Source: a virus
Lineage: Duplodnaviria > Caudoviricetes
IMG/VR virus record: IMGVR_UViG_3300008259_002957
DNA: 64,000 nucleotides
Direction: 5' to 3' (one strand)
The translations under genes and the position numbers were made by a program. Positions 7,252 through 27,657 of the stretch are shown one piece after another (position 1 is the stretch's first letter; each line of letters begins with the position of its first letter). The notes under the pieces are model-generated. The model was not told the origin of the DNA. It searched no databases and saw only the letters and a program-made list of their open reading frames with translations.

Positions 7252-7255
7252 ACCG

Positions 7256-8131: not shown

Positions 8132-8307
8132 GCGAACCGGTTATTACAGACGAGTTTTATTTAAAAAAGTTCATGCAGTTACAACAAGCAAATGTGGTGC
8201 TGTGGAGAAAATTACACAATATTAAAGAAAATGAAGATCTCAGAGCAACTATTGAAACTTATTTAGGCGACGACTTTTTTAATAACTTAGATGACTTAGT
8301 AGGATGA
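8128..8307 (+). CDS. 59-aa small protein missed by ORF track
   Basis: MSEPVITDEFYLKKFMQLQQANVVLWRKLHNIKENEDLRATIETYLGDDFFNNLDDLVG*; ATGA overlaps with both neighbours and fills the gap exactly. Confidence 0.8.
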   Translation: MSEPVITDEFYLKKFMQLQQANVVLWRKLHNIKENEDLRATIETYLGDDFFNNLDDLVG

Positions 8308-9966: not shown

Positions 9967-10643
9967 GCTTCATCCATTGCATCGGCAGGAAAGTCTGTTT
10001 TAAAACTTTCAAATGCTAACATTTGTATATCAAAAAAAGAAGTAGGTTTGTCTACATCAATACCTAACCTAGTCATTTTTGGTAACAGGTCATTTCTTCT
10101 ATTAATACTAATATGACTCATTACATCTGTCAAACTAATTGTTTTGTCATTTTTGTCATACGCAAAAAAATAATTAATGCTTTTTAGTTTTCCGTCTACA
10201 ACAAAGTAACTGCTTGGGTGCATACTGTATTTGTAAATTCCGAGACTGGCATGTGCTTGAATAATTTCCAACATTTGTTCTTGCCAGTTGGGTAAAACTT
10301 TATCATAATTATTTTGAGAACACTGTGCTTGTTCCCAAAAATCCGTCCCATCTATATCAAAGTATATTTTTTTGTTTATGTGATCTACAGTGTCGATTGT
10401 TGGAACATGCTGGGGATAATGTCTGGCCATAATAGTTAAAAATTTAATTTCTCTGTGCCACTTTTCTTCCATTAACCGTGGATCAACAACTTCATTGTGT
10501 CCGCTGTGATAATTCTCGTCGTTGTAATACCATTGACAAAAAGTTTTGCGATCTTTTGAAATTAGGCTAGTGTATATAAGATTGTTTCTGCACAATCCTT
10601 TTCCTGGTACATTATTATAATAGTACTCAAACTGTGTATTCAT
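9933..10643 (-). CDS. Kinase-like fold protein (remote)
   Basis: REIKFL...HVPTIDTVD, YKYSMHPSSYFVVDGKLKSINYF; paralog of 5470-6156. Confidence 0.4.
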   Translation of the reverse strand: MNTQFEYYYNNVPGKGLCRNNLIYTSLISKDRKTFCQWYYNDENYHSGHNEVVDPRLMEEKWHREIKFLTIMARHYPQHVPTIDTVDHINKKIYFDIDGTDFWEQAQCSQNNYDKVLPNWQEQMLEIIQAHASLGIYKYSMHPSSYFVVDGKLKSINYFFAYDKNDKTISLTDVMSHISINRRNDLLPKMTRLGIDVDKPTSFFDIQMLAFESFKTDFPADAMDEACSIYKHTTTI

Positions 10644-10648
10644 AACAA

Positions 10649-10664
10649 TAATTAGCGATAAGTA
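10649..10664. promoter_or_regulatory. Back-to-back variant late-type boxes
   Basis: CTAATTA (-) 5 nt before ATG 10643; ATAAGTA (+) 5 nt before ATG 10670. Confidence 0.45.
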
Positions 10665-10669
10665 TGTTT

Positions 10670-11485
10670 ATGATTAGAGGAATTGGCACAAAACCGTATA
10701 TCGACTTGGATCCTTACTTGGATATAGAAGGATTTAAAAATCTGCATCCAGAAATTGCCAAGGGTTTTGCACTAGCAAGAGACTATGCAAAAGAAGGCAC
10801 ATGGATGACTCCTGGGTTTGATTGGAAAGATGCAAGTTATATTGTCAACTGGAAACCAATTTATAGTGCAGTTGAAGAATATCTAGCACTACCAGAAACA
10901 CATCCTATACGTGTCACAGGCGATCCTATGTATTTTACAGATTTAAAAGATTTTAGAAATCGCAACATTTTTACACGTTACTTAAAAACCACAATGGGTG
11001 CAAATGACCCTTACACTTATTATTTTTTATGGGATCAGGGTGATTGGAATGAACGCAATGCTGAACGCCAAAAAACTGTAGAGTCGAAGTACTTTCCGGG
11101 TGTTGTTAAATGGGTGGAAGAATTACAGCACACAGGAATCATCGACAGAATCGGAAGAGTAATATTTTTTCATTGCGATCACAACGGCAGAGCATTTGAG
11201 CATAGAGACTTGGACGCACGTAACGGTGTGTTAGGCGATCATCAATATACTCCACACAACAATGAATTTATTCACATTCGTTATAGAACAAAGCGTGGAT
11301 TCTATATTTGGGATCCGGATACAGAAAACAAATATTATATAAACGCTAATGCTGCATTTTGGAATGATCAAGACTGGCACGGCGGAGAAGAAAGCAAAGA
11401 AATTGAGTATGGAATGAGAATTGACTGTAAGTTTAGCAATTCATTTCGCGAACAATTGGGTATTGATCATTTGGAGCACTATTGA
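10670..11485 (+). CDS. Fe(II)/2OG oxygenase-like cupin
   Basis: AFEHRD ... NDQDWHGG ... MRIDC. Start chosen at second ATG (track 10664) from promoter spacing. Confidence 0.65.
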   Translation: MIRGIGTKPYIDLDPYLDIEGFKNLHPEIAKGFALARDYAKEGTWMTPGFDWKDASYIVNWKPIYSAVEEYLALPETHPIRVTGDPMYFTDLKDFRNRNIFTRYLKTTMGANDPYTYYFLWDQGDWNERNAERQKTVESKYFPGVVKWVEELQHTGIIDRIGRVIFFHCDHNGRAFEHRDLDARNGVLGDHQYTPHNNEFIHIRYRTKRGFYIWDPDTENKYYINANAAFWNDQDWHGGEESKEIEYGMRIDCKFSNSFREQLGIDHLEHY

Positions 11486-11976
11486 TTTATCGAGGTAATT
11501 TTGCAAACTGGATCAATCCTACGTGGAGAGAACTTGTCCTAAACACAGTAGGACAAGCAAGACCCAGAGATTGGCCTCCGGAAACTGCCGTTGAAAGTGC
11601 TGAATATTGCAAGGCTCGAGATGCAGGATACGATTTAACAGCAACGCACTGGTGGGTATACGAAGAACACGATTTAAATATTAAAATAAGTCCGCCTTGG
11701 TGTACTGGAAAAACTGAATGGTGGATCACAAAGTTAATGCCTGGTCAATTTATGCCGATGCACACAGACCCATTTACACATTATGAAACTTGTAAACGAT
11801 ATTGGGTGCCATTACAAGACTATCAACCCGGGCATTTGTTTGTATACGGAAATTTAGTATTAACAAAGTATTCTGCTGGCGACGTATATGAATACATTAA
11901 CAGTCAAGATATTCATGGCGCCGCCAATATAGGACATATGCCAAGAGTAGTGTTGCAGGTCACTGAATATGAGTAA
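11482..11976 (+). CDS. Fe(II)/2OG oxygenase-like cupin
   Basis: MPMHTDP ... DIHGAAN ... RVVLQVT. Confidence 0.72.
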   Translation: MIYRGNFANWINPTWRELVLNTVGQARPRDWPPETAVESAEYCKARDAGYDLTATHWWVYEEHDLNIKISPPWCTGKTEWWITKLMPGQFMPMHTDPFTHYETCKRYWVPLQDYQPGHLFVYGNLVLTKYSAGDVYEYINSQDIHGAANIGHMPRVVLQVTEYE

Positions 11977-13117
11977 AACATATTGTCCGTTGCCATGGGT
12001 ACACTCGAGTTGGCAAAATGGAAATACTATACTTCCTTGTTGTGGATTTATGGACGGCGGAAGGTTCAATAAAACATCCGTATTTGAAAAATTGTATTTT
12101 GACAACGAAATGGATCAACTTCGGGCAGATATGCTTGCTGGTAAAACTATCAAAGGTTGCGAACAATGCTATGATCAAGAAAACAACAATTTAGATAGTA
12201 TGCGTACTAGAGCGTTAGACAAATACGGAATTGTAACAACAATAGATTTACAAGATTTGCATATTATGTTTGATAATCTATGCAATTTAAAATGTAGAAT
12301 GTGTGCAAGTTCAAACAGTCATTTATGGCACGTAGAAGAAAAAGAGTTATACGGAGAGGCATTTTCTTCTAGCAAATATTTTCAAAATACATTTTATAAA
12401 GAAGTAAATTTAAAAAACATTAAAGAAATTAATCTTACAGGCGGGGAACCACTTTATAGTCCTCATTTTATTCCTTTCTTAAAAAAATTAAAAGAAGATG
12501 CAGATACAAGCCAAATTTATATTGATTTTTTTACTAATGGAACAATACAGCCCACTGAAGAAATTCTTAGTATATTAAAAGAGTTTAAAAAAGTAACAAT
12601 TACTATTAGCATAGATGCAATAGGAAAATTAAACGACTTTATTAGAAAAAACAGTAATTTTGATGAAATAAAAAATAATTTAGATTTTTATTATAGATTA
12701 TTGTCAGATAAAATTTCAGTAAATGTTTTGACTACAGTTGGAATTTACAATGCTATCTATGTCGAAGATATTAAAAACTATTTTAGTTTAAATTATCCAA
12801 AGTTTAATTGGGGTTACGATGTAATACAGTATCCAGAATATTTAAGTATAAGACACATGCCAACTAACTTAAAAGATATCTACAAAGAGTATATCAAGGA
12901 AGAACCGTTGATATCTTATATGTACGACAGTGGCAAAGATTTATTTAAACATTTTTTATATTCTCATTATAAACTTAATAAAATAAGAAATGAAGATTTT
13001 ACTGAGAACAACATTTTGTTAAATTATATTAAAAATAATAATACTGACATTTACGAAGAAGAAACCAAAAAGTATTACAAAAATATGATTAACGAAATTC
13101 GTGGATCAAGAGATTAA
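11969..13117 (+). CDS. Radical SAM enzyme, subfamily A
   Basis: YCPLPW...LPCC...CEQC; FDNLCNLKCRMC; LTGGEPL; FTNGT; SIDA. Confidence 0.92.
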   Translation: MSKTYCPLPWVHSSWQNGNTILPCCGFMDGGRFNKTSVFEKLYFDNEMDQLRADMLAGKTIKGCEQCYDQENNNLDSMRTRALDKYGIVTTIDLQDLHIMFDNLCNLKCRMCASSNSHLWHVEEKELYGEAFSSSKYFQNTFYKEVNLKNIKEINLTGGEPLYSPHFIPFLKKLKEDADTSQIYIDFFTNGTIQPTEEILSILKEFKKVTITISIDAIGKLNDFIRKNSNFDEIKNNLDFYYRLLSDKISVNVLTTVGIYNAIYVEDIKNYFSLNYPKFNWGYDVIQYPEYLSIRHMPTNLKDIYKEYIKEEPLISYMYDSGKDLFKHFLYSHYKLNKIRNEDFTENNILLNYIKNNNTDIYEEETKKYYKNMINEIRGSRD

Positions 13118-14094
13118 TTTGTATATTTTTTTAAAACATATTCTGGTGTTTTTAAAAAACTAGTGTCTTTGTCAGAACACATGTCGCATTCTCCTATTTC
13201 GCAGTATTTTGTTTCATCAAAAAAATCAATTTCGTCGTTGTTATAATTTTCTAAATTTATAGGTTTATAATTTAAATATTTTTGCCAATCTGGGTCGTTT
13301 AATAAATTATGATGATTTAAAAATCTATTTAATGTACCCAAAGAAGAACACTTGTATAATTTTTTATCAATCAAAAAACTACACATATCACTGGTGCAGC
13401 CGTTTTGATAAGATTCGGCAGGATTGTTTGTTTTAAAGGGTTTAGGAATATTATCAATTAATTGATAATTTTGTTTAAATGTGCTTTGCTCTCTGTAATG
13501 AACAAACGTTTTATTATAAAATACCTGTTCAGTATCTTCAATGTAATCATAAAAGTTTTGTCTTTTGTCTAACCACTCTTGATACAAGATATCGTTTTTT
13601 TTATTTTCTATATCGAATAGATTTTTATAAAAATCGGACACATTTCCACTGGGCAAATTCACAGCATCTGCTAAAAGTTTAAAATTTTGTTTAACTTTAT
13701 TTGAAAGTGTTTTATCTTCAAATCCTGAAAAATGGTCACATACAAAAACACTAACATCAAACTGTTTTATTAACGCAACTAGTTCATTGAGTTTTTTATC
13801 AATAAGTGTTCCATTGGTTGGTAGTAAAAGTACAGCATCTGGATCTATGCTTTTTATAAATTTAAATATTTCTGTAATTCGATCTAAATACAGTAACGGT
13901 TCACCACCTGAAGTACCATAATAGATTATATCAAATTTTTCTTTGACTAATTTAATGCCTGTTAATATGTCATCCAATGTTGGATCATAGTTTTTTGTTT
14001 GCAACACATGGCTTCTTGCATCACAATGATTGCAGGCTAAGTTACAATAAGCACCGCAGTAAATATCTAAAAATCTCAGGTATGGTTGACTCAT
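13114..14094 (-). CDS. Radical SAM enzyme (singleton type)
   Basis: YCGAYCNLACNHC, TSGGEPL, PTNGT, C-terminal CECDMC-like Cys cluster (CEIGECDMC). Start ATG 14094 (track GTG 14115). Confidence 0.88.
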   Translation of the reverse strand: MSQPYLRFLDIYCGAYCNLACNHCDARSHVLQTKNYDPTLDDILTGIKLVKEKFDIIYYGTSGGEPLLYLDRITEIFKFIKSIDPDAVLLLPTNGTLIDKKLNELVALIKQFDVSVFVCDHFSGFEDKTLSNKVKQNFKLLADAVNLPSGNVSDFYKNLFDIENKKNDILYQEWLDKRQNFYDYIEDTEQVFYNKTFVHYREQSTFKQNYQLIDNIPKPFKTNNPAESYQNGCTSDMCSFLIDKKLYKCSSLGTLNRFLNHHNLLNDPDWQKYLNYKPINLENYNNDEIDFFDETKYCEIGECDMCSDKDTSFLKTPEYVLKKYTN

Positions 14095-14099
14095 TGTAA

Positions 14100-14149
14100 T
14101 ATTTAGTAGTATCACAATTGAGTAACTATGTTTTTGTTTGCAGTAAATA
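14100..14149. promoter_or_regulatory. Divergent late-type promoter boxes
   Basis: CTAAATA (-, 14100-14106) 5 nt before ATG 14094; GTAAATA (+, 14143-14149) followed by AGGAG and ATG 14176. Confidence 0.6.
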
Positions 14150-14175
14150 TTAGAAATAATACCACAGGAGATAAA

Positions 14176-15246
14176 ATGAAAGTATCAAAAATTCCCGGTT
14201 TAGGTTCATATGGACATTATATTGACGACTTAGACTTTGATAATATCACAGATGAAGAATGGGCAGAAATTGGAAAATTTCATTTAACTGATTTAGTAAC
14301 TATTCTAAGAAACGTTAAAATTACTAAAGATCAGTACTATAACAGAATTCGGCAATGGGGTCCTTTTATCGGTGCAACAATGTCTCGCAAGCACTTTCAA
14401 AAAAAATACGGTCAAGATTTTGATGGTAGAATTCAAGAACATTACAAAAAATTTAATGTATCATCAGAAGACGAACGTTATATTAAAATGAAACAGTTTT
14501 ATATTGAACATACTGAACATGGTAATACATTAACACGAGTTTGTGGCAAAAGAGATGAATACGGTAACCCAATGGGCAACTTTTCATCTGGCGAGTTATA
14601 TTGGCACAGTAACGAATCGTCTGTAATTAACTTTACTCCCGGAGTTGCATTGATGGGCGGAGAGTATATGGTAGGTAGTTCTACAGGATTTCTACAAACT
14701 GCTGATTATTATCAGTCAATCTCTGAAAGTTTTAGAAGCGAACTTAACGAAATGATTTTAGTTCACGCATACATTCCTGGAGGGATTAATGAACTCGAAA
14801 AAGATGATCCAAGTTTTGGAGAAAACATAAGAAAAGAATTTGCACCAGTTGACGGGGCTGAAGTACCCTTGGTAATTACAAGTCCGGGCGGAATCAAAGG
14901 ACTGCATTATACACTTAATTCTGTTGTTGGAATTAAAGGTATGAGTAAATATGATAGCGATAAAGTTTTTGCAGAAATTGACCGAGAATTGTTAACTGAA
15001 AAATATATTTACGATCACATGTACTTACAAGACAATGAGATTTGTTTATTTGATAATTCGATAACATTACATAGAAGAAAGCATCCTGGAAATCCGAACA
15101 GACTTGCATTTAGATTGCAATATTATCCTGATAGTTTAATAAAACAATCGTGGCATCCATATCATCAACAGCATTTTTACAACTATCATCAAGATGAAAT
15201 GCTAGAGTTGATGAATATCCTAGAGTTAGATTTAAAATTTCCATAA
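14176..15246 (+). CDS. TauD/TfdA-family dioxygenase
   Basis: LYWHSNES ... LFDNSITLHRR; AGGAG SD before ATG 14176 (track 14128). Confidence 0.8.
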   Translation: MKVSKIPGLGSYGHYIDDLDFDNITDEEWAEIGKFHLTDLVTILRNVKITKDQYYNRIRQWGPFIGATMSRKHFQKKYGQDFDGRIQEHYKKFNVSSEDERYIKMKQFYIEHTEHGNTLTRVCGKRDEYGNPMGNFSSGELYWHSNESSVINFTPGVALMGGEYMVGSSTGFLQTADYYQSISESFRSELNEMILVHAYIPGGINELEKDDPSFGENIRKEFAPVDGAEVPLVITSPGGIKGLHYTLNSVVGIKGMSKYDSDKVFAEIDRELLTEKYIYDHMYLQDNEICLFDNSITLHRRKHPGNPNRLAFRLQYYPDSLIKQSWHPYHQQHFYNYHQDEMLELMNILELDLKFP

Positions 15247-15253
15247 TTTTAAA

Positions 15254-16396
15254 ATGTCTGATATAAAAACAAAGTTAATCAACATCGAATGGTTATTTGT
15301 TGATCAAGATCATTACGATTTGATAATGATCGAAATTGATCAAGCAGTGCGAGAAAAATGCAACGTAATTATTTTTCTTGCACTGATGGACGGATTTGTG
15401 GCGTGGGATCCTAAATATTGGATCCCACTGATTGACAAACTCGACAATGCTTGTAAAAAATTAGGTATACAAGAGATAATTTTTATATCTGGTGCTGGAA
15501 AAACATATGAGTATGGTTTAAAACACACACACTACTTTTATGACTGGAATATGAGTGTTGTAAAAAATGCATACAAAGATTATGATAATCAAATCAAAGA
15601 TTATAATAACGATGCTGACAAGTTTTTATTTTTAACAGGTCGTTCTGCTCGTCCAAATCGTATTGGACTAATGAGTAAATTTTACGACGAAAATATGTTA
15701 AAAAATAGCACTTGGTCATTTTTTCCTCCTTGGAACGAAATAGATAACAAATGGTGCCGAAACTATTTGTCAAAATATACAGATAAAGAATATAACGAGT
15801 TTTTAAAAAACTGTAATAGATCTTTAGATAGCGATAACGAATACAACTCTTGTAAAAGTTTTTTAGGAGTTTACGAAGGCGACAACTGGCACGATATTGT
15901 AAAAGAACCCTACATACACAATCCGTCATTTATAGATTTGCATCACTATAACGATGTAAAGTTAACAGTAATAAGTGAAGGGCCGATATACTGGGAATGG
16001 AGTAACGACCGGTATTATCTTACTGATAAAACTTATAGAGAATTATTAATGAAGAAGCCAGTAATTTTATCGGGCTATGTAGAACAATACAAAGAATTGA
16101 AAAATCTAGGATTTAAGACATTTGACGAGAATTTCTTAATCAAAGAGTACGGTTTAATCGAAGATGAAGAACAGCGTCTTGAAGCAATAGTACAAAATGT
16201 AAAATATTTTTTAAACAACAGCGATTATCAAAAAGTCAAACAAGACGTTGACTTTAATACAAAGTTATTGTATTATTATTTTAAAAAGCAAGATGAATTT
16301 TTAAAGTATTTAGAAACAAAGTACAATGCTAGTAAAGAAGAAATTGAGTTTTTCTTTAATCGTAAAGGTCTTGAGCACCTAATAAGAAAACCCTAA
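15254..16396 (+). CDS. Glycosyltransferase-like (GT-B-type phage family) protein
   Basis: FLFLTGRSARPNRI...VISEG...LTDKTY...KKPVIL...LGFKTFD, a pattern typical of phage GT-like proteins. Confidence 0.45.
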   Translation: MSDIKTKLINIEWLFVDQDHYDLIMIEIDQAVREKCNVIIFLALMDGFVAWDPKYWIPLIDKLDNACKKLGIQEIIFISGAGKTYEYGLKHTHYFYDWNMSVVKNAYKDYDNQIKDYNNDADKFLFLTGRSARPNRIGLMSKFYDENMLKNSTWSFFPPWNEIDNKWCRNYLSKYTDKEYNEFLKNCNRSLDSDNEYNSCKSFLGVYEGDNWHDIVKEPYIHNPSFIDLHHYNDVKLTVISEGPIYWEWSNDRYYLTDKTYRELLMKKPVILSGYVEQYKELKNLGFKTFDENFLIKEYGLIEDEEQRLEAIVQNVKYFLNNSDYQKVKQDVDFNTKLLYYYFKKQDEFLKYLETKYNASKEEIEFFFNRKGLEHLIRKP

Positions 16397-17493
16397 TGTT
16401 TTATCAAAAAATTACTCAACTCGAACTTGAACTTACAACAAGATGCAACGCATCTTGTCCTCAGTGTGTACGTAATTTTTACGGTGGAAAAACATGGCCA
16501 ACATTGCCCATGGTCGACATTGACTTGGAATTAATTAAAACAAAAATACCAGATTCAATTTTAAAAGACTTGATAGAAATTCGTATTTGCGGAACTTATG
16601 GTGATCCCTGTATCTATCAAGATTTGATAGAGTTAGTCAAATATTTAAATTCAAAAACTTCTGCACAACTTACTATTAATACAAACGGTAGTTTACGTAC
16701 AACAAAATGGTGGAAAGATCTTGCTAACGTTTTAAAAAAAGATGATAGAGTTATTTTCGGAATAGATGGTTTAGATGACACAAACCATTTGTATAGAGTT
16801 AACACAAACTTTAAAAAAATAATCAATAATGCAAAAGCATTTATATCTGCTGGCGGATCAGCAATATGGAGTTACATTGTTTTTAAACACAACGAACATC
16901 AAGTAGATGCTGCAAGACAATTAAGCAACAAACTCGGATTTGATGGGTTTTCTTGTAAGTTGACAACTAGATTTATCGATAAACAACATAATCTAGTTGA
17001 TAAAACTCCAGTGTTTGACAAAAATAATAATCTTAATAGATATTTAGAAATGCCTGATGAAAAGAAATATCTAAACAATGGCTATAATAACTACGAAAAA
17101 ATTATAAAAGAGTTCGGATCTTATGAAAACTATTTGCAAAAATCTAAAATATTTTGTACTGCACAACACAGTAATTTAATTTATATTTCAGCCGAAGGGT
17201 ACGTTTTGCCTTGCGGATGGCTTGCTGATAGATTTTATGGGTTTGAAACCGAAAAGCACAAAGATAGAAAAAAATTATTTGAGTTGATTGACCTAAACGG
17301 CGGTCTAAACACTATTAGTTTGCATCATTTTTCATTGGACGAAATTGCAAACAGTAAAGTGTTTCACGCTATACAACAAAACTGGATTAGCGAAAATAGA
17401 ATAGAGCGTTGTGCAAATCAATGTAGTAAATACGGTATGCTTAAACAAAATGCTACAAAAGAATTACAACCTTATGTAAAAGGAAATGTATAA
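16396..17493 (+). CDS. Radical SAM enzyme, subfamily C (C-terminal twitch)
   Basis: LTTRCNASCPQCVR, CGTYGDP, NTNGS, GIDG; IFC...VLPCGW...CANQC. Confidence 0.92.
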   Translation: MFYQKITQLELELTTRCNASCPQCVRNFYGGKTWPTLPMVDIDLELIKTKIPDSILKDLIEIRICGTYGDPCIYQDLIELVKYLNSKTSAQLTINTNGSLRTTKWWKDLANVLKKDDRVIFGIDGLDDTNHLYRVNTNFKKIINNAKAFISAGGSAIWSYIVFKHNEHQVDAARQLSNKLGFDGFSCKLTTRFIDKQHNLVDKTPVFDKNNNLNRYLEMPDEKKYLNNGYNNYEKIIKEFGSYENYLQKSKIFCTAQHSNLIYISAEGYVLPCGWLADRFYGFETEKHKDRKKLFELIDLNGGLNTISLHHFSLDEIANSKVFHAIQQNWISENRIERCANQCSKYGMLKQNATKELQPYVKGNV

Positions 17494-18399
17494 ATGCACA
17501 ATATTTTTAAAAATTCTTATGCTATACAAGATCCTGAAATAGTAGACTTTATAAAACACATTGATTTTTCAGAAGCATTATGGGATAATAGTGTTACTAA
17601 AAATTTTTGTAATGCTTACAAAAATTGGATTTTAAGTTCTGCCGACAATAATTTTATAGGTTTAAATAACTTCACATATGCAATTTATAGCAACGGTGCG
17701 TCTCAAGCGTTTGATATGTTTTATATTAAAAATAAAAATAGACGTTTTAGATGTTTTAAGGGCGAATATGTTTATCACAAACTAGCCTGGAGAAATAATT
17801 GGAACGACTGGACATTTATAGAGGATTCACCTTTAGAATTTAATGATGCAGTAGTAATTAGTTTACCGTTTAGTGACACCGGAAACAAGCATGTTGAGAT
17901 GGACAGTGTTTTAGAGATATGCGATCGATTACAGATTCCAGTGTTAATTGATTGTATATATTTTGGAATTTGTAATAATATAAATTTTGATTTATCTTTT
18001 AATTGTATTACTGATGTTGTTTTTAGTTTAAGTAAAACATTTCCTGTTGCAAATGCAAGAATTGGAATAAGATTTACAAAAACAGATGACGACGACCTTA
18101 TGTTTGTATATGATAAGATGAATTACAATAACAGACTTGGTTCTCACTTAGGATTAAATCTTTTACAAAACTTTTCACCAGATTTTGTATACAATAAATA
18201 TAAAAGTAAACAACTCGAGTGTTGTAGTGTTTTAAATATTACGCCAAGTAATACAGTTTTATTTGGCGTAGACAACTTTAAAAAATACAATCAATATAAC
18301 AGAGGCACTAATACCAATAGACTAAGTCTTCAAGACTTGCTAATTTTAAACAATTTACAAATGAAAGAGATATTATATGCCAATTCAAACAAACAATGA
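17494..18399 (+). CDS. PLP-dependent fold-type I enzyme (aminotransferase-like)
   Basis: VLIDCIYFG (PLP Asp) and FSLSKTFPVANARIG (PLP Lys). Confidence 0.65.
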   Translation: MHNIFKNSYAIQDPEIVDFIKHIDFSEALWDNSVTKNFCNAYKNWILSSADNNFIGLNNFTYAIYSNGASQAFDMFYIKNKNRRFRCFKGEYVYHKLAWRNNWNDWTFIEDSPLEFNDAVVISLPFSDTGNKHVEMDSVLEICDRLQIPVLIDCIYFGICNNINFDLSFNCITDVVFSLSKTFPVANARIGIRFTKTDDDDLMFVYDKMNYNNRLGSHLGLNLLQNFSPDFVYNKYKSKQLECCSVLNITPSNTVLFGVDNFKKYNQYNRGTNTNRLSLQDLLILNNLQMKEILYANSNKQ

Positions 18400-19438
18400 T
18401 TGGGATCCTTTAGAAGAGATTGTAGTTGGTATAGCCGATCATGCAATGCTTCCAACTCTTGATAAAAGTACTCATAGTTTTTCTTATGCAGCAAACACAT
18501 ATGACGAAATTAAACATCTTAACGGAATTTTACACAATCAACAAGTCATTGACGAAGCAAATGAAGACTTAGATGGATTGTCAGATACTTTAAAAAGTTT
18601 AGGTGTTAATGTATTAAGACCTGATGTAATTGATCATAGACAAAAATTTAGTACGCCCGATTGGGAAACTACAGGGTGGCATACTTATTGTCCCAGAGAC
18701 TTGTTGTTACCTTTGGACAACATGATTATCGAGTGTCCTAGTCCTATGCGGTCTCGATACTTTGAAACTCGTGCATATTACAATCATTTATATAAATGGA
18801 TGAAGGAAGGTTCGCAATGGATCTGTGCTCCAAAGCCGATACTATTAGATGAAAGTTATCAACTAGATGATATAAAAGAAGCAACCTTACTAAATCACGA
18901 AATTGTATTTGATGCACCAAATATCGTTAGATTAGGAAGAGATTTACTTTGCCAAGTAAGCAACAGTGGAAATCAACTTGGGTTTGAATGGCTAAAAACT
19001 ATTCTCGAACCAAAAGGATACAGATTTCATATTGCAGAAAAGTATTATAGTTTTTCGCATTTTGACAGCACAGTAATTCCTCTTCGTCCTGGATTGGTTT
19101 TGTTCAACGGTGACAGATTAAATGAAGACTGGTACCCGCCTATTTTTAAAAGTTGGGATAAGATTTTTTGGCCTGGCGAAAAAATTGGTAAAATACCTAC
19201 AAATTTATCAAACGGTATCTCACCGTGCTCACCTTATATTGGACTAAACTTGTTAAGTGTAAATCCTGAACTCATTATTGTAGATGAAAATCAACAAGAA
19301 CTGATGAAAGAATTAGACAAAACATGGGGAATTGAAAGTATTGGTTTGCCAATGAGACAAGCAAGAACATTAAGCGGTGGCTTTCATTGTGTTACATTAG
19401 ATACAAAACGTAAAGGAACACTAGAGGACTATTTTTAA
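18377..19438 (+). CDS. Amidinotransferase (AGAT/StrB1 family)
   Basis: NDWDPLEEIVVG, CPRDLL, FDAPN, HFDST, GGFHCVT (Asp/His/Cys catalytic set). Confidence 0.9.
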   Translation: MPIQTNNDWDPLEEIVVGIADHAMLPTLDKSTHSFSYAANTYDEIKHLNGILHNQQVIDEANEDLDGLSDTLKSLGVNVLRPDVIDHRQKFSTPDWETTGWHTYCPRDLLLPLDNMIIECPSPMRSRYFETRAYYNHLYKWMKEGSQWICAPKPILLDESYQLDDIKEATLLNHEIVFDAPNIVRLGRDLLCQVSNSGNQLGFEWLKTILEPKGYRFHIAEKYYSFSHFDSTVIPLRPGLVLFNGDRLNEDWYPPIFKSWDKIFWPGEKIGKIPTNLSNGISPCSPYIGLNLLSVNPELIIVDENQQELMKELDKTWGIESIGLPMRQARTLSGGFHCVTLDTKRKGTLEDYF

Positions 19439-21285
19439 TGAAAAGTGTGTATTTGTTTCAAGTAAATTATCAAATGGGTTACGGAAACTTTTCTAGTCAA
19501 AGTTTACCATATAGTATTGCTGCGGTCTGGTCATATGCAGAACAGTTTGATATAGTAAAACAAAACTTTGATGTAAAGGATTGTTTTTTTAAACGTGAAC
19601 CTGTTGATTTGGTTATCACTAAAATACATGATCCAGAAATTTGTCTCTTTAGTAACTATATTTGGAACGAACAATACAATTTTCAATTGGCAAAAAAAAT
19701 AAAAGATAAATGGCCAAACTGTTTAATTGTGTTTGGCGGCCCGCAGGTTGGCGAAAAAGCAGGACACAAACTTTTACAAAAAAAGTTTATAGATAGTATT
19801 ATAATTAACGAAGGCGAAAAGTCTTTGTATTCGTTATTAACTGACTACATTACTACTGGAATAGTTAAAGAAACATATCAATTGCATCAACGTGTTGATG
19901 TTGAAGAAATGCCAAGTCCTTATATAAACAGCAACATTTTAAACAAGTTAGTCCAAGAAAATAAAAATGTAAAATTTTCAACAACCATAGAAACAAATAG
20001 AGGCTGTCCTTTTGCTTGTACATTCTGTGACTGGGGTAGTCTAACTCAAAGTAAAATTAAAAAATTTAATTTAGAAAAAGTATTTGCTGAGTTAGATTGG
20101 GTTGCAAAAAATAAAATAGAATACATTTATATTGCTGATGCTAACTTTGGTGTTTTTTATGAACGTGACAAACTTATTGTAGAATATCTAGCCAAGTTAA
20201 AAACAGAAACAGGCTATCCTCACGGAGTTACTGCTACTTGGTATAAAAACAGTGCTGAAAAAACTATTGAATTAGTTAAAATACTGCACAGTGTAGGACT
20301 TAATAGAGGTCTTACATTAAGTGTTCAAAGTATGAATGACGATACGTTAACAAACATTAAACGTAAAAATATGGAAATATCTCAGTTATCACAGATGTAC
20401 AAAGAATGTGACAAACAAGGTGTGACATATTATACAGAGTTTATTTTGGGTATGCCATACGAAACTAAACAAAGTTGGAGAGAAGGTCTTTGCGAAGCCA
20501 TACAAGCAGGATGTCATTATTTCTTAGATGTGTTTCCCTTAGAAATACTTAAAAACAGTGAGATGGCCACTGAAGTACTTGATCACGAAATGGCAGTGGA
20601 AACATATTACACAGTGTTTAATGGTCAGTTGACTAACATTCCAGAAATTCACAACTACGTAATTGCAACAAAATACATGAACAAATCGGATTACATTGAT
20701 TCTTGGTTGTGGTATTGGTTAATAATGAACTTTCATAATTATAACTGGACGCAAGTATTGGCTAAATTTGCAAACAAACATCTTGGTATTGATTATATTG
20801 ACTTTTATGAAAACTTTTTTAATAATTGTATTTTAAAAGAAGATTTTTTTCTATCACTGTATAATAAACAAAAAACCGATTTAGAAGAATTCTTTTGGAA
20901 TAAAAAAATTACAGACGTTTTTGTTAATGACAATGTTACAGTTAATTACACTCAAATTGAATGGCATAAAAATAGAAACACGGTTCAAACTAAAATTGAA
21001 CAGTGGGCTAAAAAATACTTTTCTACAGTTGACAACAATTTGTTAAACGACCTACTCAATTTTAATAAATCATACACAACAGACATTTCACGAAAACATG
21101 CTATAAGTGGTGAGTTTAATTATAATTTAAACGAGTTTTGTAATTTTAACGACAAGTTAATACAAAATAAAACAACATATAGATTTGATATATCTATACC
21201 TTGGGACACAGATATAGACTTTAAAGAAAAATTGTTCTATAAAAACAGAAGTGGTTTTAGTGTAGCAAAAATAACAAAGTTATGA
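19438..21285 (+). CDS. Cobalamin-binding radical SAM enzyme (class B methyltransferase-like)
   Basis: N-terminal B12 domain (FSNYIWN, IVFGGPQV, NEGE); TNRGCPFACTFCDW; ADANFG. Confidence 0.9.
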   Translation: MKSVYLFQVNYQMGYGNFSSQSLPYSIAAVWSYAEQFDIVKQNFDVKDCFFKREPVDLVITKIHDPEICLFSNYIWNEQYNFQLAKKIKDKWPNCLIVFGGPQVGEKAGHKLLQKKFIDSIIINEGEKSLYSLLTDYITTGIVKETYQLHQRVDVEEMPSPYINSNILNKLVQENKNVKFSTTIETNRGCPFACTFCDWGSLTQSKIKKFNLEKVFAELDWVAKNKIEYIYIADANFGVFYERDKLIVEYLAKLKTETGYPHGVTATWYKNSAEKTIELVKILHSVGLNRGLTLSVQSMNDDTLTNIKRKNMEISQLSQMYKECDKQGVTYYTEFILGMPYETKQSWREGLCEAIQAGCHYFLDVFPLEILKNSEMATEVLDHEMAVETYYTVFNGQLTNIPEIHNYVIATKYMNKSDYIDSWLWYWLIMNFHNYNWTQVLAKFANKHLGIDYIDFYENFFNNCILKEDFFLSLYNKQKTDLEEFFWNKKITDVFVNDNVTVNYTQIEWHKNRNTVQTKIEQWAKKYFSTVDNNLLNDLLNFNKSYTTDISRKHAISGEFNYNLNEFCNFNDKLIQNKTTYRFDISIPWDTDIDFKEKLFYKNRSGFSVAKITKL

Positions 21286-22725
21286 ATACAGCGGAATAAA
21301 TTTTGTTATTCCGTTGACATTTACTTCCAACCAACTGTCTGGGTTTGATGTATTAGCAGGAGATTTAGAAGTTTCTCCTACAACAGTAACATCTTTAATT
21401 ACACTTTTTAAATGCCCATCTGAATTTATAGACAATGCTTCGGTTAATTCGCCTGCATTGTTAGAAACTTTTATTGAAAAATGACCCGGTACCTTTCCTG
21501 ACGAAACAATTGCATTGCTAGAAACAGACGTTTCGATTAAAGCAACTGGTACACACGAAATACTATAATTAGTGCCACTTTGAGCACCAAATATAATACT
21601 TTGTATTCCGTCTCCGGGTTGTACAGGCTCTGGGTTAGAAATAGATCCTCTAGTTTTAATAAGAGCAAGAGTTCCTGGGAGATTACTGTCTTTTGACACA
21701 CAAATAGTCAACGGGCCGTAATCGTCGTTGATGTCTTTGTCTGAAACAAATAATGCAGTACCGCTACTTCCAACATCTTTATCACCTACTTGAAAGTTAT
21801 TAAATCTTTGAATATCCGATACAACGTTTCCGAAAAAATTTCCATAAAACGTATTAGTTTGATAATCGTAACTAATTCCGTTGGTTTCGGATAACAAGTT
21901 TGCTTTAATAATCTGTATATCAGTATCTAAAATAACTTCACCGAGATTGTTATAAACATTTCCTGCAAACGTTCCTACAAACTCGCCGACGATAGAATCA
22001 GTTACTACAATATCTTCAGCATTGATTTTTTTAACAACTAGTTCGTTTAACTCTGCAGAGTTAGTAAAAGAATCGTACATAAGATTCCCATTTGCATTAT
22101 AAACATTGCCTTTGACATTTCCGTAGATGAGGTTATTTACTTCGAGATCATCTAACCGTAAACTGTTGCTATTTGAATCATAAACAGTATCGCCTGCGTG
22201 ATCAACAATATTGCCTAAAAAATTACCAATGAATATTTTGTTTTCCGAATCAAGTACCATGGTTCCGTTTTCGTCAGCAACATTTCCAAAAAATATTCTT
22301 TGATTTTTATCAACAATTATATTTCCAAATTCGTCAACTACGTTTCCAACAACATTACCATGGAATAATTTTTCATTCTTGTCGACAACCAAATTTCCAA
22401 TATCATCAACAATATTTCCAAGAACATTACCGTAGAATATTTGTTGTGAGTTGTCGATGACTATATTTCCTGAGTCGTCAAGAACATTACCGGTAACATT
22501 ACCGTAGAATGTTTTTTCTGAAATATTAAGAACTACATTTCCTAAGTCGTCGATTACATTTCCAACAAAATTTCCGTGGAAAGTTTTGTTTTCGTAGTCA
22601 ACTATGATGTAATCGTCAACATCGACTATGTTGGCTTTGATAATACCTCTAAAGCTATCTACTATAAGAGTACTGTCCATACCTTCAATATTAATTCTAT
22701 ATGACGCACCATCGTAAAGTTCCAT
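21280..22725 (-). CDS. Repeat-rich fibre/virion-like protein
   Basis: G/N/V-rich 24-aa repeats; YRINI.G.DS module shared with 52382 gene; C-terminal WLEVNVNGITKFIPLY; own late box and SD. Confidence 0.6.
   Translation of the reverse strand: MELYDGASYRINIEGMDSTLIVDSFRGIIKANIVDVDDYIIVDYENKTFHGNFVGNVIDDLGNVVLNISEKTFYGNVTGNVLDDSGNIVIDNSQQIFYGNVLGNIVDDIGNLVVDKNEKLFHGNVVGNVVDEFGNIIVDKNQRIFFGNVADENGTMVLDSENKIFIGNFLGNIVDHAGDTVYDSNSNSLRLDDLEVNNLIYGNVKGNVYNANGNLMYDSFTNSAELNELVVKKINAEDIVVTDSIVGEFVGTFAGNVYNNLGEVILDTDIQIIKANLLSETNGISYDYQTNTFYGNFFGNVVSDIQRFNNFQVGDKDVGSSGTALFVSDKDINDDYGPLTICVSKDSNLPGTLALIKTRGSISNPEPVQPGDGIQSIIFGAQSGTNYSISCVPVALIETSVSSNAIVSSGKVPGHFSIKVSNNAGELTEALSINSDGHLKSVIKDVTVVGETSKSPANTSNPDSWLEVNVNGITKFIPLYS
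22162..22581 (-). repeat. Six tandem 20-24 aa (about 72 nt) coding repeats
   Basis: F(H/Y)GN(V/F)xGN(V/I)xDxxGNxxxD units at residues 49-188; DNA aacattacc recurs. Confidence 0.85.
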
Positions 22726-25339: not shown

Positions 25340-25550
25340 GTTAAGTTTACGAGAACTGCAAACAGAGTGTGCAAGAGCACTAAGTACAATGCAAGCAACA
25401 AATAACAATATAACTCAATTTAATAAAGTAGCACATCACGATAGTCAACGTTGGTATCGAGCAGTTATAACTTGGTATGTCGAACAATATGGCGATTTAC
25501 CTAGTAAAACAGGACCTGGGAAGGACGTAACGTTAATACACGATGTATGA
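25326..25550 (+). CDS. Small hypothetical protein (74 aa)
   Basis: Overlaps both neighbours in operon orientation. Confidence 0.7.
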   Translation: MDLDKLSLRELQTECARALSTMQATNNNITQFNKVAHHDSQRWYRAVITWYVEQYGDLPSKTGPGKDVTLIHDV

Positions 25551-26622: not shown

Positions 26623-26629
26623 GAGATGA

Positions 26630-27652: not shown

Positions 27653-27657
27653 GAATT

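What the first reader, a model, noticed from the sequence alone, without database searches (positions are those of the whole stretch)
14176..21285. Coupled module TauD - GT-like - rSAM - PLP enzyme - amidinotransferase - B12 rSAM
Seen: one late-box-driven unit whose genes abut or overlap. Established: streptidine synthesis uses oxidation, PLP transamination and StrB1 amidino transfer; class B rSAMs C-methylate aminosugars. Inference: makes a guanidino, C-methylated sugar or cyclitol transferred by the GT-like protein. An AGAT/StrB1-family amidinotransferase is an unusual phage gene.
Basis: partly seen in the sequence, partly recalled or inferred. Interest (0 to 1): 0.62.

Follow-up and report, generated by a model that had tools for sequence, protein, structure and literature searches.

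The report
Phage amine-to-guanidine enzyme pair
A giant freshwater phage carries a streptomycin-type amidinotransferase fused by gene overlap to a miniature, virus-only PLP aminotransferase; this pair recurs in hundreds of aquatic phage contigs and probably puts a guanidino group on an unknown building block, but the proposed six-gene unit is not conserved as a unit.

Summary
They are a TauD-family protein, a GT-B-fold protein, a rSAM-SPASM enzyme, a 301-aa class I/II PLP-fold protein, a StrB1-like amidinotransferase (AT) and a TokK/KedN5-like B12 rSAM.

The AT is not a plain glycine amidinotransferase. Its best solved match is StrB1 (E 1.6e-86, against 1e-56 for AGAT), its catalytic Cys/His/Asp are intact, and it lies in a tight viral clade on the StrB1 side of the family tree.

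The six genes are not conserved as a unit. In 160 related viral and metagenome loci:
- The mini-PLP gene accompanies the AT in 151, nearly always directly upstream.
- TauD and the adjacent rSAM never accompany it.
- The B12 rSAM does so in 4 loci and the GT-B gene in 5.

The recurrent set is a small cupin oxygenase, PLP, AT, two other rSAM types and a distantly related GT-B family. The window holds all of these between 11482 and 19438.

The most likely function is that the PLP enzyme makes a primary amine and the AT converts it to a guanidine, inside a glycan or metabolite tailoring island. The product is unknown.

The scan already reported a paralogous AT with a mini-aminotransferase elsewhere in this genome (e1-5337033). 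AT genes in phages are published, without a function.

The parts
11482..11976 (+). It belongs to the recurrent partner set.
   Evidence: hhalign against the f2 family alignment A8 gives probability 98.1, E 7.7e-14. The family has an invariant HxD...H. f2 sits directly upstream of the PLP gene in most viral loci. The ESM Atlas gives Asp_Arg_Hydrox as a lead only.
11969..13117 (+). Radical SAM enzyme with an N-terminal twitch domain. It belongs to the recurrent partner set.
   Evidence: NF033640 at 1.3e-73, above its cut-off. CX3CX2C at residue 105. Relatives lie near the AT in 66/80 viral and 46/80 metagenome loci.
13114..14115 (-). Radical SAM enzyme (family 'rSAM5'), divergent from the module. 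Its likely start is the ATG at 14094. It belongs to the recurrent partner set.
   Evidence: PF04055 at 3.4e-12. CX3CX2C at residue 24. The family lies directly downstream of the AT in 43 viral loci. TAAATA lies 11 nt before 14094.
14176..15246 (+). TauD/TfdA-family protein with WHSN in place of the usual WH-x-D. This is a lineage-specific member of the block.
   Evidence: PF02668 at 55.1 bits (cut-off 27) and phrog_24590 at 1.2e-83. It is 40% identical to the Prochlorococcus phage P-HM1/P-HM2 'taurine dioxygenase'. The HxN motif is shown. It is absent from all 160 related loci.
15254..16396 (+). GT-B-fold protein (probable glycosyltransferase) with no sequence-family match.
   Evidence: AF2 model pLDDT 90.6. 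All top 50 VIA-align hits are GT-B enzymes, Z 8.2-11.5, including T4 BGT (10.7) and AGT (10.6). It is homologous to the recurrent 386-aa family fam4: hhalign probability 99.1, E 4e-19.
16396..17493 (+). Radical SAM enzyme with a SPASM/twitch-like C-terminus. This is a lineage-specific member with paralogues in the window.
   Evidence: PF04055 at 1.6e-11; SPASM at 19 bits, below its cut-off. CX3CX2C at residue 17. Paralogues lie at 25543-28677. It is 24-27% identical to CP220 gp080/083/084. It is absent from the 160 related loci at E 1e-8.
17494..18399 (+). Miniature (301 aa) class I/II aminotransferase-fold PLP enzyme. This is core gene 1 of the conserved pair.
   Evidence: Model pLDDT 89.9. 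Foldseek finds HisC, AspAT, CobD and Pad-1 at E about 1e-10. Invariant D153, S178, S180, K181 and R189, and near-invariant R276. ESM Atlas clusters are 95-100% viral, with PF00155 in 12-27% of members. Present in 80/80 and 71/80 related loci.
18377..19438 (+). L-arginine-dependent amidinotransferase of the StrB1 side of the AGAT/StrB1 family. This is core gene 2. It overlaps the PLP gene by 23 nt.
   Evidence: PDB matches: StrB1 1.6e-86, SxtG 3.9e-61, HsvA 3.1e-60, AGAT 1.3e-56. C338, H228 and D179 align with the StrB1 catalytic residues and are invariant or nearly so in the family.
19438..21285 (+). Cobalamin-dependent (class B) radical SAM enzyme, a probable C-methyltransferase. It is a lineage-specific addition.
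   Evidence: NF033712 (KedN5 family) at 1.1e-60, but 205 bits against a cut-off of 700. TokK 1e-66 and CysS 2e-37. CX3CX2C at residue 190. It lies near the AT in only 4 of 160 loci and in L085.
21289..21316 (+). Hairpin with an 11-bp stem, 4 nt after the last stop codon. It is a possible terminator and lies inside the 3' end of the convergent ORF.
   Evidence: The count is no higher than in shuffles (4 found, 4.3 expected), so this is weak.

Best explanation
The functional core is a two-gene cassette, not the six-gene block. The 301-aa PLP enzyme (17494-18399) produces a primary amine on a precursor. It does so either by transaminating a carbonyl or, as the structurally similar CobD does, by decarboxylating an amino acid. 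The overlapping, co-translated amidinotransferase (18377-19438) then moves the amidino group of L-arginine through its Cys338 thiouronium intermediate onto that amine. This gives a guanidino group plus ornithine.

The cassette sits in a phage tailoring island. Oxidising enzymes there (the small cupin oxygenase at 11482, the TauD-like protein and several radical SAM enzymes) would prepare or further tailor the substrate. In this lineage a B12 radical SAM enzyme would add C-methyl groups, and a GT-B-fold protein would attach the unit to a glycan or add a sugar to it.

The product is probably a cationic, guanidino-bearing sugar-like or amino-acid-like unit used to decorate a glycan on the infected cell envelope or on the virion.

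Shown: the enzyme folds, intact catalytic residues, gene overlap and strict co-occurrence of the pair. Inferred: the order of the steps, the substrate, the product and its destination.
For: - The AT is a bona fide family member with its catalytic residues intact.
- The PLP partner has the fold and the PLP-binding Asp/Lys/Arg.
- PLP and AT co-occur in 80/80 IMG/VR loci and in 71/80 JGI loci (71 of the 80 have at least 950 nt upstream of the AT), with 63 directly upstream. The reading frames overlap here by 23 nt.
- Among 80 cellular genome loci the partner gene appears only on two short 'Bdellovibrionota MAG' contigs.
- A second phage AT lineage (S-SCSM2R ORF309) lies three genes from a non-orthologous mini-aminotransferase of the DegT class. 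A PLP gene near the AT therefore recurs with different enzymes.
- In Pelagibacter phage Mosig the mini-PLP homologue occurs without an AT. Its island, beside the tail-fibre genes, holds an N-acetyltransferase, TauD, Asp_Arg_Hydrox and rSAM genes. This is consistent with a PLP-made amine that is capped in different ways.
- The recurrent architecture is 2OG - f2 - PLP - AT - rSAM - GT-B - rSAM, and the window holds the same families.
- The neighbourhoods contain GT8, cytidylyltransferase/cupin and NDP-sugar epimerase/dehydratase genes.
Against: - No product, substrate or expression data exist. No RNA-holding run was listed.
- The PLP enzyme is of the HisC/AspAT/CobD class and keeps the C-terminal Arg that binds a carboxylate or phosphate in that class. 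This points towards an amino-acid-like or phosphorylated substrate rather than an NDP-sugar.
- The GT-B protein next to the pair here is not its usual neighbour, and fold alone does not show sugar transfer.
- The TauD-like protein has HxN instead of the HxD metal ligands, so it may not be an ordinary hydroxylase.
- Campylobacter phage ATs show no recognisable PLP partner.
- Co-occurrence in related phages partly reflects shared ancestry.
Confidence: 0.5

Rival explanations
1. The pair and its neighbours make a free guanidino amino acid or other small metabolite (a homoarginine-, enduracididine- or phaseolotoxin-type building block, or an antibiotic-like compound), or they modify a peptide or virion protein such as a tail fibre. 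No glycan is involved.
For: - The PLP enzyme is of the amino-acid aminotransferase class and keeps the carboxylate/phosphate-binding Arg.
- From my own knowledge, TauD-family oxygenases include enzymes acting on arginine-type substrates (VioC, OrfP, clavaminate synthase).
- TokK/CysS/KedN5-type B12 rSAMs methylate secondary-metabolite carbons.
- SPASM/twitch rSAMs are typical peptide maturases.
- L085 joins the AT with a carbamoyltransferase and a tryptophan halogenase.
- The S-SCSM2R authors read their genes as 'antibiotic synthesis genes' and found a second AT in the virion proteome (PMC12801897).
- The islands lie beside tail-fibre genes.
Against: - GT-B, GT8, GT2/GT25, nucleotidyltransferase and NDP-sugar epimerase genes surround the pair in many loci.
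- No precursor peptide, NRPS, ATP-grasp or export gene was seen next to the pair.
- No reason is known for a lytic phage to make an antibiotic.
Confidence: 0.25
2. One reading: the six genes 14176-21285 form one fixed pathway, a streptidine-like oxidation, transamination and amidination plus C-methylation of a sugar or cyclitol, which the GT-like protein then transfers.
For: - The genes are tightly coupled, with a TAAATA box in front.
- All six enzyme classes are confirmed.
- The nearest relative probably keeps at least GT-B to AT on one 7.4-kb contig. This is inferred only from equal contig lengths for P0002 and P0122.
Against: - TauD, rSAM365 and the B12 rSAM are missing from almost all 160 related loci, while the pair persists.
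- The recurrent partners (f2, the N-twitch rSAM, rSAM5) lie outside the block, at 11482-14115.
- The PLP enzyme is not of the StsC/DegT type.
- No inositol dehydrogenase or kinase is present.
Confidence: 0.12
3. The cassette modifies the phage's DNA. A primary amine on a hypermodified base (for example an aminoalkyl pyrimidine or 7-aminomethyl-7-deazaguanine) is converted to a guanidine, and the GT-B protein acts on DNA as T4 AGT and BGT do.
For: - T4 BGT and AGT are ranks 2 and 3 among the fold matches of the GT-B protein (Z 10.7 and 10.6).
- From my own knowledge, PLP and rSAM enzymes occur in thymidine hypermodification pathways.
- In 15 related loci a GTP cyclohydrolase I gene lies 2-6 kb from the pair.
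- AT-bearing Campylobacter phages have fully 7-deazaguanine-modified DNA.
Against: - The Z scores of the DNA glucosyltransferases tie with those of many ordinary GT-B enzymes.
- No DpdA/TGT, hydroxymethylase or base-kinase gene was seen next to the pair.
- GTP cyclohydrolase I lies among genes that look like phage backbone genes (RNase H-like exonuclease, RecA/UvsX-like, UvdE), so its adjacency may only reflect where the island is inserted.
- dADG in CP220 is explained without an amidinotransferase.
Confidence: 0.05
4. The AT is an ordinary glycine amidinotransferase making guanidinoacetate, the 'creatine pathway' auxiliary metabolic gene reading used in ocean virome surveys.
For: JGI and KEGG-style names on many homologues read 'glycine amidinotransferase'. 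A global-ocean AMG survey discusses viral creatine-pathway genes (PMC11360552).
Against: - StrB1 scores 294 bits against 195 for AGAT.
- A clade that truly resembles AGAT is separate in the tree.
- The AGAT 300-flap D-P-N-P-M (PMC4887976) corresponds here to Y-Y-S-F-S, and the protein has StrB1's length.
- The AT is strictly coupled to a PLP enzyme, which guanidinoacetate synthesis does not need.
Confidence: 0.04

Closest known systems
StrB1, L-arginine:inosamine-phosphate amidinotransferase of streptomycin (streptidine) biosynthesis (PDB 1bwd)
   Same: Best solved match, collinear over 349 residues (E 1.6e-86). Same length class, same Cys/His/Asp catalytic residues, and no AGAT-type flap. An amine-making PLP step precedes amidination in both pathways.
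   Different: The phage clade's nearest cellular kin, in Streptomyces, cyanobacteria and myxobacteria, are 40-47% identical in tblastn best segments. The partner aminotransferase is a 301-aa class I/II enzyme, not the DegT-type StsC. No inositol dehydrogenase or kinase is present, and the acceptor is unknown.
Glycine amidinotransferases AGAT and CyrA/AoaA, SxtG (saxitoxin), HsvA (Erwinia) and AmtA (phaseolotoxin)
   Same: Same family and same catalytic mechanism.
   Different: They score lower (SxtG 210 bits, HsvA 207, AGAT 195) and fall in a separate tree clade. The flap sequence differs, and none is described with an obligatory PLP partner.
Radical-SAM plus amidinotransferase module of Campylobacter phages CP220/CPt10 (Timms et al. 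2010, PMC2853527)
   Same: A T4-like phage with an AT embedded among five rSAM genes and GT-A-like genes. The CP220 rSAMs are related to the window's rSAM365. Function unknown.
   Different: The CP220 AT belongs to a different, distant AT clade. No mini-PLP or f2 homologue could be detected next to it.
Synechococcus phage S-SCSM2R ORF305-310 (PMC12801897)
   Same: A cyanomyovirus island holding a mini-aminotransferase, an rSAM (rSAM5 family), a GT, an f2-type oxygenase, the AT and a GT2.
   Different: Its AT is in another subclade (36% identity). Its PLP partner is a 195-aa DegT-class protein, not the class I/II mini-enzyme. The authors interpret the genes as antibiotic synthesis genes.
Earlier scan finding e1-5337033: AT plus half-size sugar aminotransferase elsewhere in the same genome
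   Same: Same logic (PLP amine formation followed by amidination), same phage, same tailoring island.
   Different: A different gene pair about 20 kb away. Here the PLP enzyme is of the HisC/AspAT/CobD class and the AT belongs to the large clade with at least 60% identity. I could not read that other locus, because it lies outside the 76-kb genome piece held.
TokK, CysS and KedN5 cobalamin-dependent radical SAM C-methyltransferases
   Same: Best matches of the 615-aa protein. It has the N-terminal B12 domain plus a CX3CX2C core.
   Different: It scores far below the KedN5 family cut-off (205 bits against 700). The substrates of the known enzymes are carbapenem, benzoate and naphthonate side chains, not aminosugars.

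Membership tests
AGAT/StrB1 amidinotransferase family (pentein fold, EC 2.1.4.x) | Full-length collinear similarity to solved members | tested here: met
   StrB1 1.6e-86 (query residues 4-352 against 5-346), SxtG 3.9e-61, HsvA 3.1e-60, AGAT 1.3e-56. Pfam gave no hit at E<=0.01.
AGAT/StrB1 amidinotransferase family (pentein fold, EC 2.1.4.x) | Catalytic Cys-His-Asp (AGAT Cys407, His303, Asp254; PMC3684758) | tested here: met
   C338 (GGFHC), H228 (HFDST) and D179 (FDAPN) align with the same StrB1 motifs. C338 and H228 are invariant and D179 nearly invariant.
AGAT/StrB1 amidinotransferase family (pentein fold, EC 2.1.4.x) | Arginine-dependent amidino transfer with ornithine release | not testable with these tools
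   Needs an enzyme assay.
StrB1-type inosamine-phosphate amidinotransferase (orthologue) | Groups with StrB1 rather than with AGAT, SxtG or HsvA | tested here: inconclusive
   Bit scores favour StrB1 (294 against 195-210). The window lies in the 48/51-row group that is separate from the AGAT-like group. StrB1 itself could not be placed in the tree, because no reference sequence was available from the tools.
StrB1-type inosamine-phosphate amidinotransferase (orthologue) | Streptidine gene context: DegT-type StsC aminotransferase, inositol dehydrogenase, kinase | tested here: not met
   None of these is in 11482-21285. The PLP partner is of the class I/II fold.
Glycine amidinotransferase (AGAT/CyrA) | 300-flap D-P-N-P-M (or CyrA D-I-F-P-S) and lid helix 9 (PMC4887976) | tested here: not met
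   The corresponding stretch before H228 is K-Y-Y-S-F-S, and in StrB1 K-L-Y-A-S-T. The protein has 353 aa, StrB1 348, the AGAT chains 385-423.
Class I/II aminotransferases (Pfam PF00155, fold type I PLP) | Fold of the large PLP-binding domain | tested here: met
   Model pLDDT 89.9. At least 500 Foldseek hits at E<=0.001, led by HisC, AspAT, Pad-1, TyrAT and CobD.
Class I/II aminotransferases (Pfam PF00155, fold type I PLP) | PLP-binding residues: Schiff-base Lys in S-x-S-K, Asp to the pyridine N, Arg to the phosphate | tested here: met
   K181, S178, S180, D153 and R189 are invariant in 25 sequences. The mapping onto AspAT K258, D222 and R266 rests on my knowledge of the family.
Class I/II aminotransferases (Pfam PF00155, fold type I PLP) | Passes the family HMM and has the normal two-domain size (about 360-420 aa) | tested here: not met
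   No Pfam hit, and only a valine-pyruvate transaminase fragment at 5e-4. The family is 283-304 aa long. The ESM Atlas shows PF00155 in 12-27% of the members of its virus-only clusters.
DegT/DnrJ/EryC1/StsC sugar or cyclitol aminotransferases (PF01041) | Family HMM or fold match | tested here: not met
   No PF01041 hit for 17494-18399. The S-SCSM2R ORF305 partner does hit it, at 1.8e-17.
GT-B glycosyltransferases | Two-Rossmann GT-B fold | tested here: met
   the 50 best of 48,161 chains are all GT-B enzymes, Z 8.2-11.5, with 220-278 residues aligned in nearly all. Foldseek alone was weak.
GT-B glycosyltransferases | Membership of a CAZy/Pfam GT sequence family; nucleotide-sugar binding | tested here: inconclusive
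   No Pfam, NCBIfam or PDB sequence hit. Donor binding was not tested.
Class B (cobalamin-dependent) radical SAM methyltransferases | CX3CX2C core plus an N-terminal B12-binding domain | tested here: met
   CPFACTFC at residue 190. PF04055 at 1.1e-12. PF02310 only at 0.0055, but the TokK alignment spans residues 23-469.
KedN5 family (NF033712) | Score above the curated cut-off | tested here: not met
   205.6 bits against a cut-off of 700.
TauD/TfdA Fe(II)/2OG dioxygenases (PF02668) | Family HMM above the gathering score | tested here: met
   55.1 bits against 27.
TauD/TfdA Fe(II)/2OG dioxygenases (PF02668) | HxD...H metal-binding triad | tested here: inconclusive
   The motif is W-H144-S-N146, where RdpA has W-H-T-D. 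N146 is conserved in the P-HM2 and Mosig homologues, while the following Glu is not. The distal His299 is present.

The most novel reading that the evidence does not exclude
The mini-PLP/amidinotransferase pair is a widespread, virus-specific 'guanidinylation cassette'. Its product is a guanidino-bearing sugar or ulosonic-acid unit built into a glycan on the virion fibres or on the infected cell's envelope. I found no such glycan decoration described in nature. It would give aquatic T4-like phages a permanently cationic surface chemistry. An even less likely variant is that the acceptor is an amine on hypermodified phage DNA.
Probability: 0.3. Interest if true: 0.75.

Novelty: new variant of a known kind. 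Interest (0 to 1): 0.55.

Why it matters
Amidinotransferases are known from creatine, streptomycin, saxitoxin, cylindrospermopsin and phaseolotoxin chemistry. Phage copies have been noted twice in the literature but never explained.

This work shows three things:
- One large AT clade is essentially viral and is abundant in lakes, estuaries and oceans.
- That clade is not a glycine amidinotransferase, so 'creatine pathway' AMG labels on it are probably wrong.
- It is locked to a miniature PLP enzyme found only in viruses.

This turns a vague 'odd phage gene' into a two-protein system that can be expressed and assayed. It also redraws the boundaries of the module in this phage and flags a possible new cationic decoration of glycans or virions. 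Such a decoration could bear on adsorption, superinfection exclusion or grazing resistance in major aquatic phage groups.

Tried and rejected
I therefore could not read the contigs of the closest relatives (AT 80-88% identical). Public-collection scans returned nothing closer than 76%. The claim that the nearest relative keeps GT-B to AT rests only on equal contig lengths.
- A single-protein scan of viral contigs found nothing. The alignment query worked.
- A diverse alignment (A4) was too divergent for the genome-contig scan. The narrower one (A5) used the pattern ...HCV, which StrB1 (HCA) cannot match. StrB1, AGAT, SxtG and CyrA sequences could not be put into the trees, so the clades were anchored indirectly by PDB searches.
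- CP220 gp082 (279 aa) and gp085 (173 aa) were tested as possible mini-PLP or f2 homologues. There was no signal (hhalign probability 0.2).
- The exact T4 late box TATAAATA is absent before the module.
- Sigma-70-like promoters and terminator-like sites are no more frequent than in shuffles.
- No RNA holder was listed for the stretch.
- Pfam, NCBIfam and PHROGs gave nothing useful for the GT-B protein, the mini-PLP or f2.
- The listing of cluster members gave only generic names.
- Both structure-prediction jobs went to the two unknown proteins. The AT acceptor pocket and a PLP-AT complex were therefore not modelled.

Full report
**1. Observation**

Between two strand switches the window holds six co-directional ORFs: 14176-15246, 15254-16396, 16396-17493, 17494-18399, 18377-19438 and 19438-21285. 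The junctions are a 7-nt spacer, TAATG, TAAATG, a 23-nt overlap and TAATG.

The ATG at 14176 has GGAG 8 nt upstream, so it is a better start than 14128.

The canonical T4 late box TATAAATA is not present before the block. It has 3 sites in the whole window against 12.3 expected. A TAAATA core lies 32 nt before 14176, and another lies 11 nt before the divergent gene's ATG at 14094. This core occurs in 12 of 21 upstream gaps, against about 0.04 expected per 60 nt. It is therefore a real promoter-like box. That it is 'late' is only an analogy to T4.

A hairpin with an 11-bp stem follows the last stop codon (21289-21316). Such sites are no more frequent than in shuffles.

**2. What the six proteins are**

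(i) 14176-15246 is a TauD/TfdA-family protein.
- PF02668 scores 55 bits and phrog_24590 1.2e-83.
- It is 40% identical to the 'taurine dioxygenase' of Prochlorococcus phages P-HM1 and P-HM2.
- Its first metal motif reads W-H-S-N instead of W-H-x-D. The Asn is conserved in the P-HM2 and Pelagibacter phage Mosig homologues.

(ii) 15254-16396 has no sequence family.
- A 34-sequence alignment gave a confident model (pLDDT 90.6).
- Its 50 best structural matches among 48,161 chains are all GT-B glycosyltransferases, Z 8.2-11.5. T4 beta- and alpha-glucosyltransferase are ranks 2 and 3.

(iii) 16396-17493 is a radical SAM enzyme with CX3CX2C and a sub-threshold SPASM tail.

(iv) 17494-18399 gave only a faint aminotransferase fragment by sequence.
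- Its model (pLDDT 89.9) matches class I/II aminotransferase-fold enzymes: HisC, AspAT, TyrAT, Pad-1 and CobD, at E about 1e-10.
- The family alignment keeps D153, S178-x-S180-K181 and R189 invariant, and R276 nearly so. These are the positions of the PLP-binding Asp, the Schiff-base Lys, the phosphate Arg and the substrate-carboxylate/phosphate Arg of that class. The mapping rests on my knowledge of AspAT.
- The family is uniformly 283-304 aa long, so it is a genuine miniature enzyme and not a fragment.
- ESM Atlas places it in clusters that are 95-100% viral.

(v) 18377-19438 is an amidinotransferase.
- PDB matches are StrB1 1.6e-86, SxtG 3.9e-61, HsvA 3.1e-60 and AGAT 1.3e-56.
- The catalytic Cys338, His228 and Asp179 sit in StrB1-like motifs.
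- The AGAT '300-flap' D-P-N-P-M (PMC4887976) is replaced by a StrB1-like stretch.

(vi) 19438-21285 is a cobalamin-dependent radical SAM enzyme. Its nearest relatives are TokK (1e-66), CysS (2e-37) and the KedN5 family (1e-60, far below that family's cut-off).

**3. Where the amidinotransferase sits in its family**

At 50% clustering, 1432 representatives match the AT. Everything at 60% identity or more collapses into one cluster. The next neighbours score about 300 bits, the same level as StrB1.

Two trees gave the same picture (121 rows, 66 rows).
- The window protein lies in a tight clade (SH-aLRT 96-99) made of uncultured viral contigs plus one short 'Bdellovibrionaceae MAG' contig.
- This clade lies inside a larger group (SH-aLRT 95-97) that also holds the Streptomyces, cyanobacterial, myxobacterial and other cellular homologues. 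Those are 40-47% identical in tblastn best segments.
- A separate clade is AGAT-like: its member P0258 scores 294 bits with AGAT and 185 with StrB1.
- A third clade is equidistant from all solved members.

The cultured-phage enzymes fall elsewhere. S-SCSM2R ORF309 lies in another subclade of the StrB1-side group, and CP220 gp086 lies in the third clade. Phage amidinotransferases are therefore polyphyletic.

StrB1, AGAT, SxtG and CyrA themselves could not be put into the trees, so this anchoring is indirect.

**4. Is the module conserved?**

An alignment query found 317 IMG/VR contigs encoding relatives, and 112 JGI metagenome stretches were confirmed. I examined the best 80 of each.
- The mini-PLP gene is present in 80/80 viral loci.
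- It is present in 71/80 metagenome loci. Seventy-one of the 80 have at least 950 nt upstream of the AT. In 63 the PLP gene is directly upstream.
- TauD and rSAM365 are present in none of the 160.
- The B12 rSAM is present in 4 and the GT-B gene in 5.

Clustering the neighbours revealed a different recurrent architecture:

2OG oxygenase - f2 (about 172 aa) - PLP - AT - rSAM5 - fam4 (about 386 aa) - N-twitch rSAM (opposite strand) - f9 - 2OG oxygenase

- f2 has an invariant HxD...H, with an Asp_Arg_Hydrox lead only.
- Profile comparison shows that the window's GT-B protein is homologous to fam4 (probability 99.1).
- The window's gene at 11482-11976 is an f2 member (probability 98.1).
- The window's genes at 11969-13117 and 13114-14115 are the N-twitch rSAM and rSAM5 types.

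The conserved set therefore lies at 11482-19438 in a rearranged order. TauD, rSAM365 and the B12 rSAM are lineage-specific additions.

Among 80 cellular genome loci, the PLP partner appears only on two short 'Bdellovibrionota MAG' contigs at 63% AT identity, which may be mis-binned phage DNA. A 'Chloroflexota MAG' contig (L085) joins a B12 rSAM, a 2OG oxygenase, the AT, a DegT-type mini-aminotransferase, a carbamoyltransferase and a tryptophan halogenase in one overlapping gene string.

**5. Independent hints on how the pair works**

- In S-SCSM2R a different AT lineage lies three genes from a different miniature aminotransferase, of the DegT class and 195 aa long. An rSAM5-family rSAM, an f2-type protein and GTs lie with them.
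- In Pelagibacter phage Mosig the only cultured-phage homologue of the mini-PLP occurs without an AT. Its island holds an N-acetyltransferase, TauD, two Asp_Arg_Hydrox proteins, rSAMs and a DegT aminotransferase, directly beside tail-fibre genes.

Both patterns fit a PLP-made primary amine that is then capped, by amidination or by acetylation.

The neighbourhoods also contain GT8, a cytidylyltransferase/cupin fusion and an NDP-sugar epimerase/dehydratase. These favour a glycan context. On the other hand, the HisC/AspAT/CobD class of the PLP enzyme and its retained substrate Arg favour a carboxylate- or phosphate-bearing substrate. StrB1's own substrate is a phosphate ester, and CobD, among the fold matches with the highest TM-score (0.70), is a decarboxylase of a phospho-amino acid.

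**6. Explanation and rivals**

Best explanation (confidence about 0.5): the two genes form an amine-to-guanidine cassette working inside a phage tailoring island. The product is a guanidino-bearing sugar-like or amino-acid-like unit. Its destination, the host envelope or the virion, is unknown.

Rivals:
- A free guanidino amino acid or metabolite, or a peptide or virion-protein modification (0.25).
- DNA hypermodification (0.05).
- A plain glycine amidinotransferase of the 'creatine AMG' kind (0.04).

**7. Comparison with what is known**

Phage amidinotransferases are on record. The CP220/CPt10 module of five rSAM genes plus an AT was described without a function (PMC2853527). The S-SCSM2R genes were read as 'antibiotic synthesis genes', and a second AT was detected in that phage's virion proteome (PMC12801897). 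I found no paper describing the obligate pairing with a virus-only class I/II mini-aminotransferase, and none describing a natural guanidino sugar in a glycan. These searches cover open-access text only.

The scan itself has already reported a paralogous AT with a mini-aminotransferase in this same genome (e1-5337033) and the surrounding island of more than 50 kb (e1-5337042). The present pair is a second, non-identical instance in that genome.

**8. Verdict**

The feature is a new variant of a known kind of chemistry (PLP amination followed by arginine-dependent amidination). The AT clade is widespread in phages, the partner enzyme is virus-specific, and the product is unknown. Interest 0.55.

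The sequence is near-identical in lake, freshwater and estuary metagenomes of 13 studies. No RNA-holding run was listed.

Noticed in passing
window 14176-15246; L244:1090-2148; L243:8366-9175: The phage TauD-like proteins share W-H-S-N where TauD/RdpA have W-H-x-D, so the carboxylate metal ligand appears to be replaced by Asn. The Asn is conserved in the window protein, Prochlorococcus phage P-HM2 and Pelagibacter phage Mosig. This may be a non-canonical Fe/2OG enzyme or an inactive one.
   Followed up: partly
window 61491-62588 (-): A complete S-adenosylmethionine synthetase (MetK, three Pfam domains, E down to 1.7e-56) is encoded by the phage, in the same window as at least ten radical SAM genes. 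It is plausibly there to feed them.
   Followed up: no
window 49612-50736 (-): A PLP-dependent ornithine/arginine/DAP decarboxylase (PF02784, 1.8e-55). Ornithine is the by-product of the amidinotransferase, so a link to polyamine formation is conceivable but untested.
   Followed up: no
window 39205-40050 (-), with 38109-39236 (+) and 40090-41280 (+): A second mini-PLP paralogue (26% identical, E 1e-22) lies between two radical SAM genes, with no amidinotransferase beside it. One of the window's three exact TATAAATA boxes lies just upstream of it, at 40056-40063.
   Followed up: partly
window 25543-28677 (+) and the gene running across the window's start (to 108): A tandem array of three paralogues of rSAM365 (31-33% identity), plus another paralogue at the window's start (36% identity). 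This is a locally expanded rSAM-SPASM family, also related to CP220 gp080/083/084.
   Followed up: no
window-wide; examples at 14144, 14105 (-), 30777, 40056 (-), 44145 (-): A TAAATA(T) core is strongly enriched just upstream of genes that follow an intergenic gap: 12 of 21 gaps, against about 0.04 expected per 60 nt. The full T4 box TATAAATA is depleted. This is probably this phage's variant late promoter.
   Followed up: partly
window 50811-54010 (-), 55544-58024 (-): A subtilase (PF00082) lies next to a protein with the Mtd_N major-tropism-determinant N-terminal domain. Nearby is a MoxR-type AAA ATPase with a DUF2201 metallopeptidase/VWA protein. The tailoring island abuts fibre or tropism genes, as it does in Mosig.
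   Followed up: no
L085 (PAAV01000010.1, 'Chloroflexota MAG'), 5592-14072: A string of overlapping genes: B12 rSAM - 2OG oxygenase - AT (52% identical) - two unknowns - DegT-type mini-aminotransferase - carbamoyltransferase - a 107-aa ORF - tryptophan halogenase. It looks like a phage-type tailoring island binned into a MAG.
   Followed up: partly
L083, L084 ('Bdellovibrionota' MAG contigs of 10-14 kb): The closest 'cellular' AT homologues (63% identity) lie on short contigs that also carry the virus-specific mini-PLP gene, here downstream on the opposite strand. They are probably phage contigs mis-binned into MAGs.
   Followed up: no
L007, L012, L022, L024, L026 and about 10 further viral loci: In smaller relatives the PLP-AT pair lies only 2-6 kb from GTP cyclohydrolase I, a phosphoribosyltransferase, an RNase H-like 5'-3' exonuclease, RecA/UvsX-like and UvdE genes. 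In the window, homologues of the exonuclease and two further families of this set lie about 40-45 kb from the pair (59577-63554), and the GTP cyclohydrolase I-family ORF lies just past the window's end. The island seems to have expanded at one fixed insertion site.
   Followed up: no
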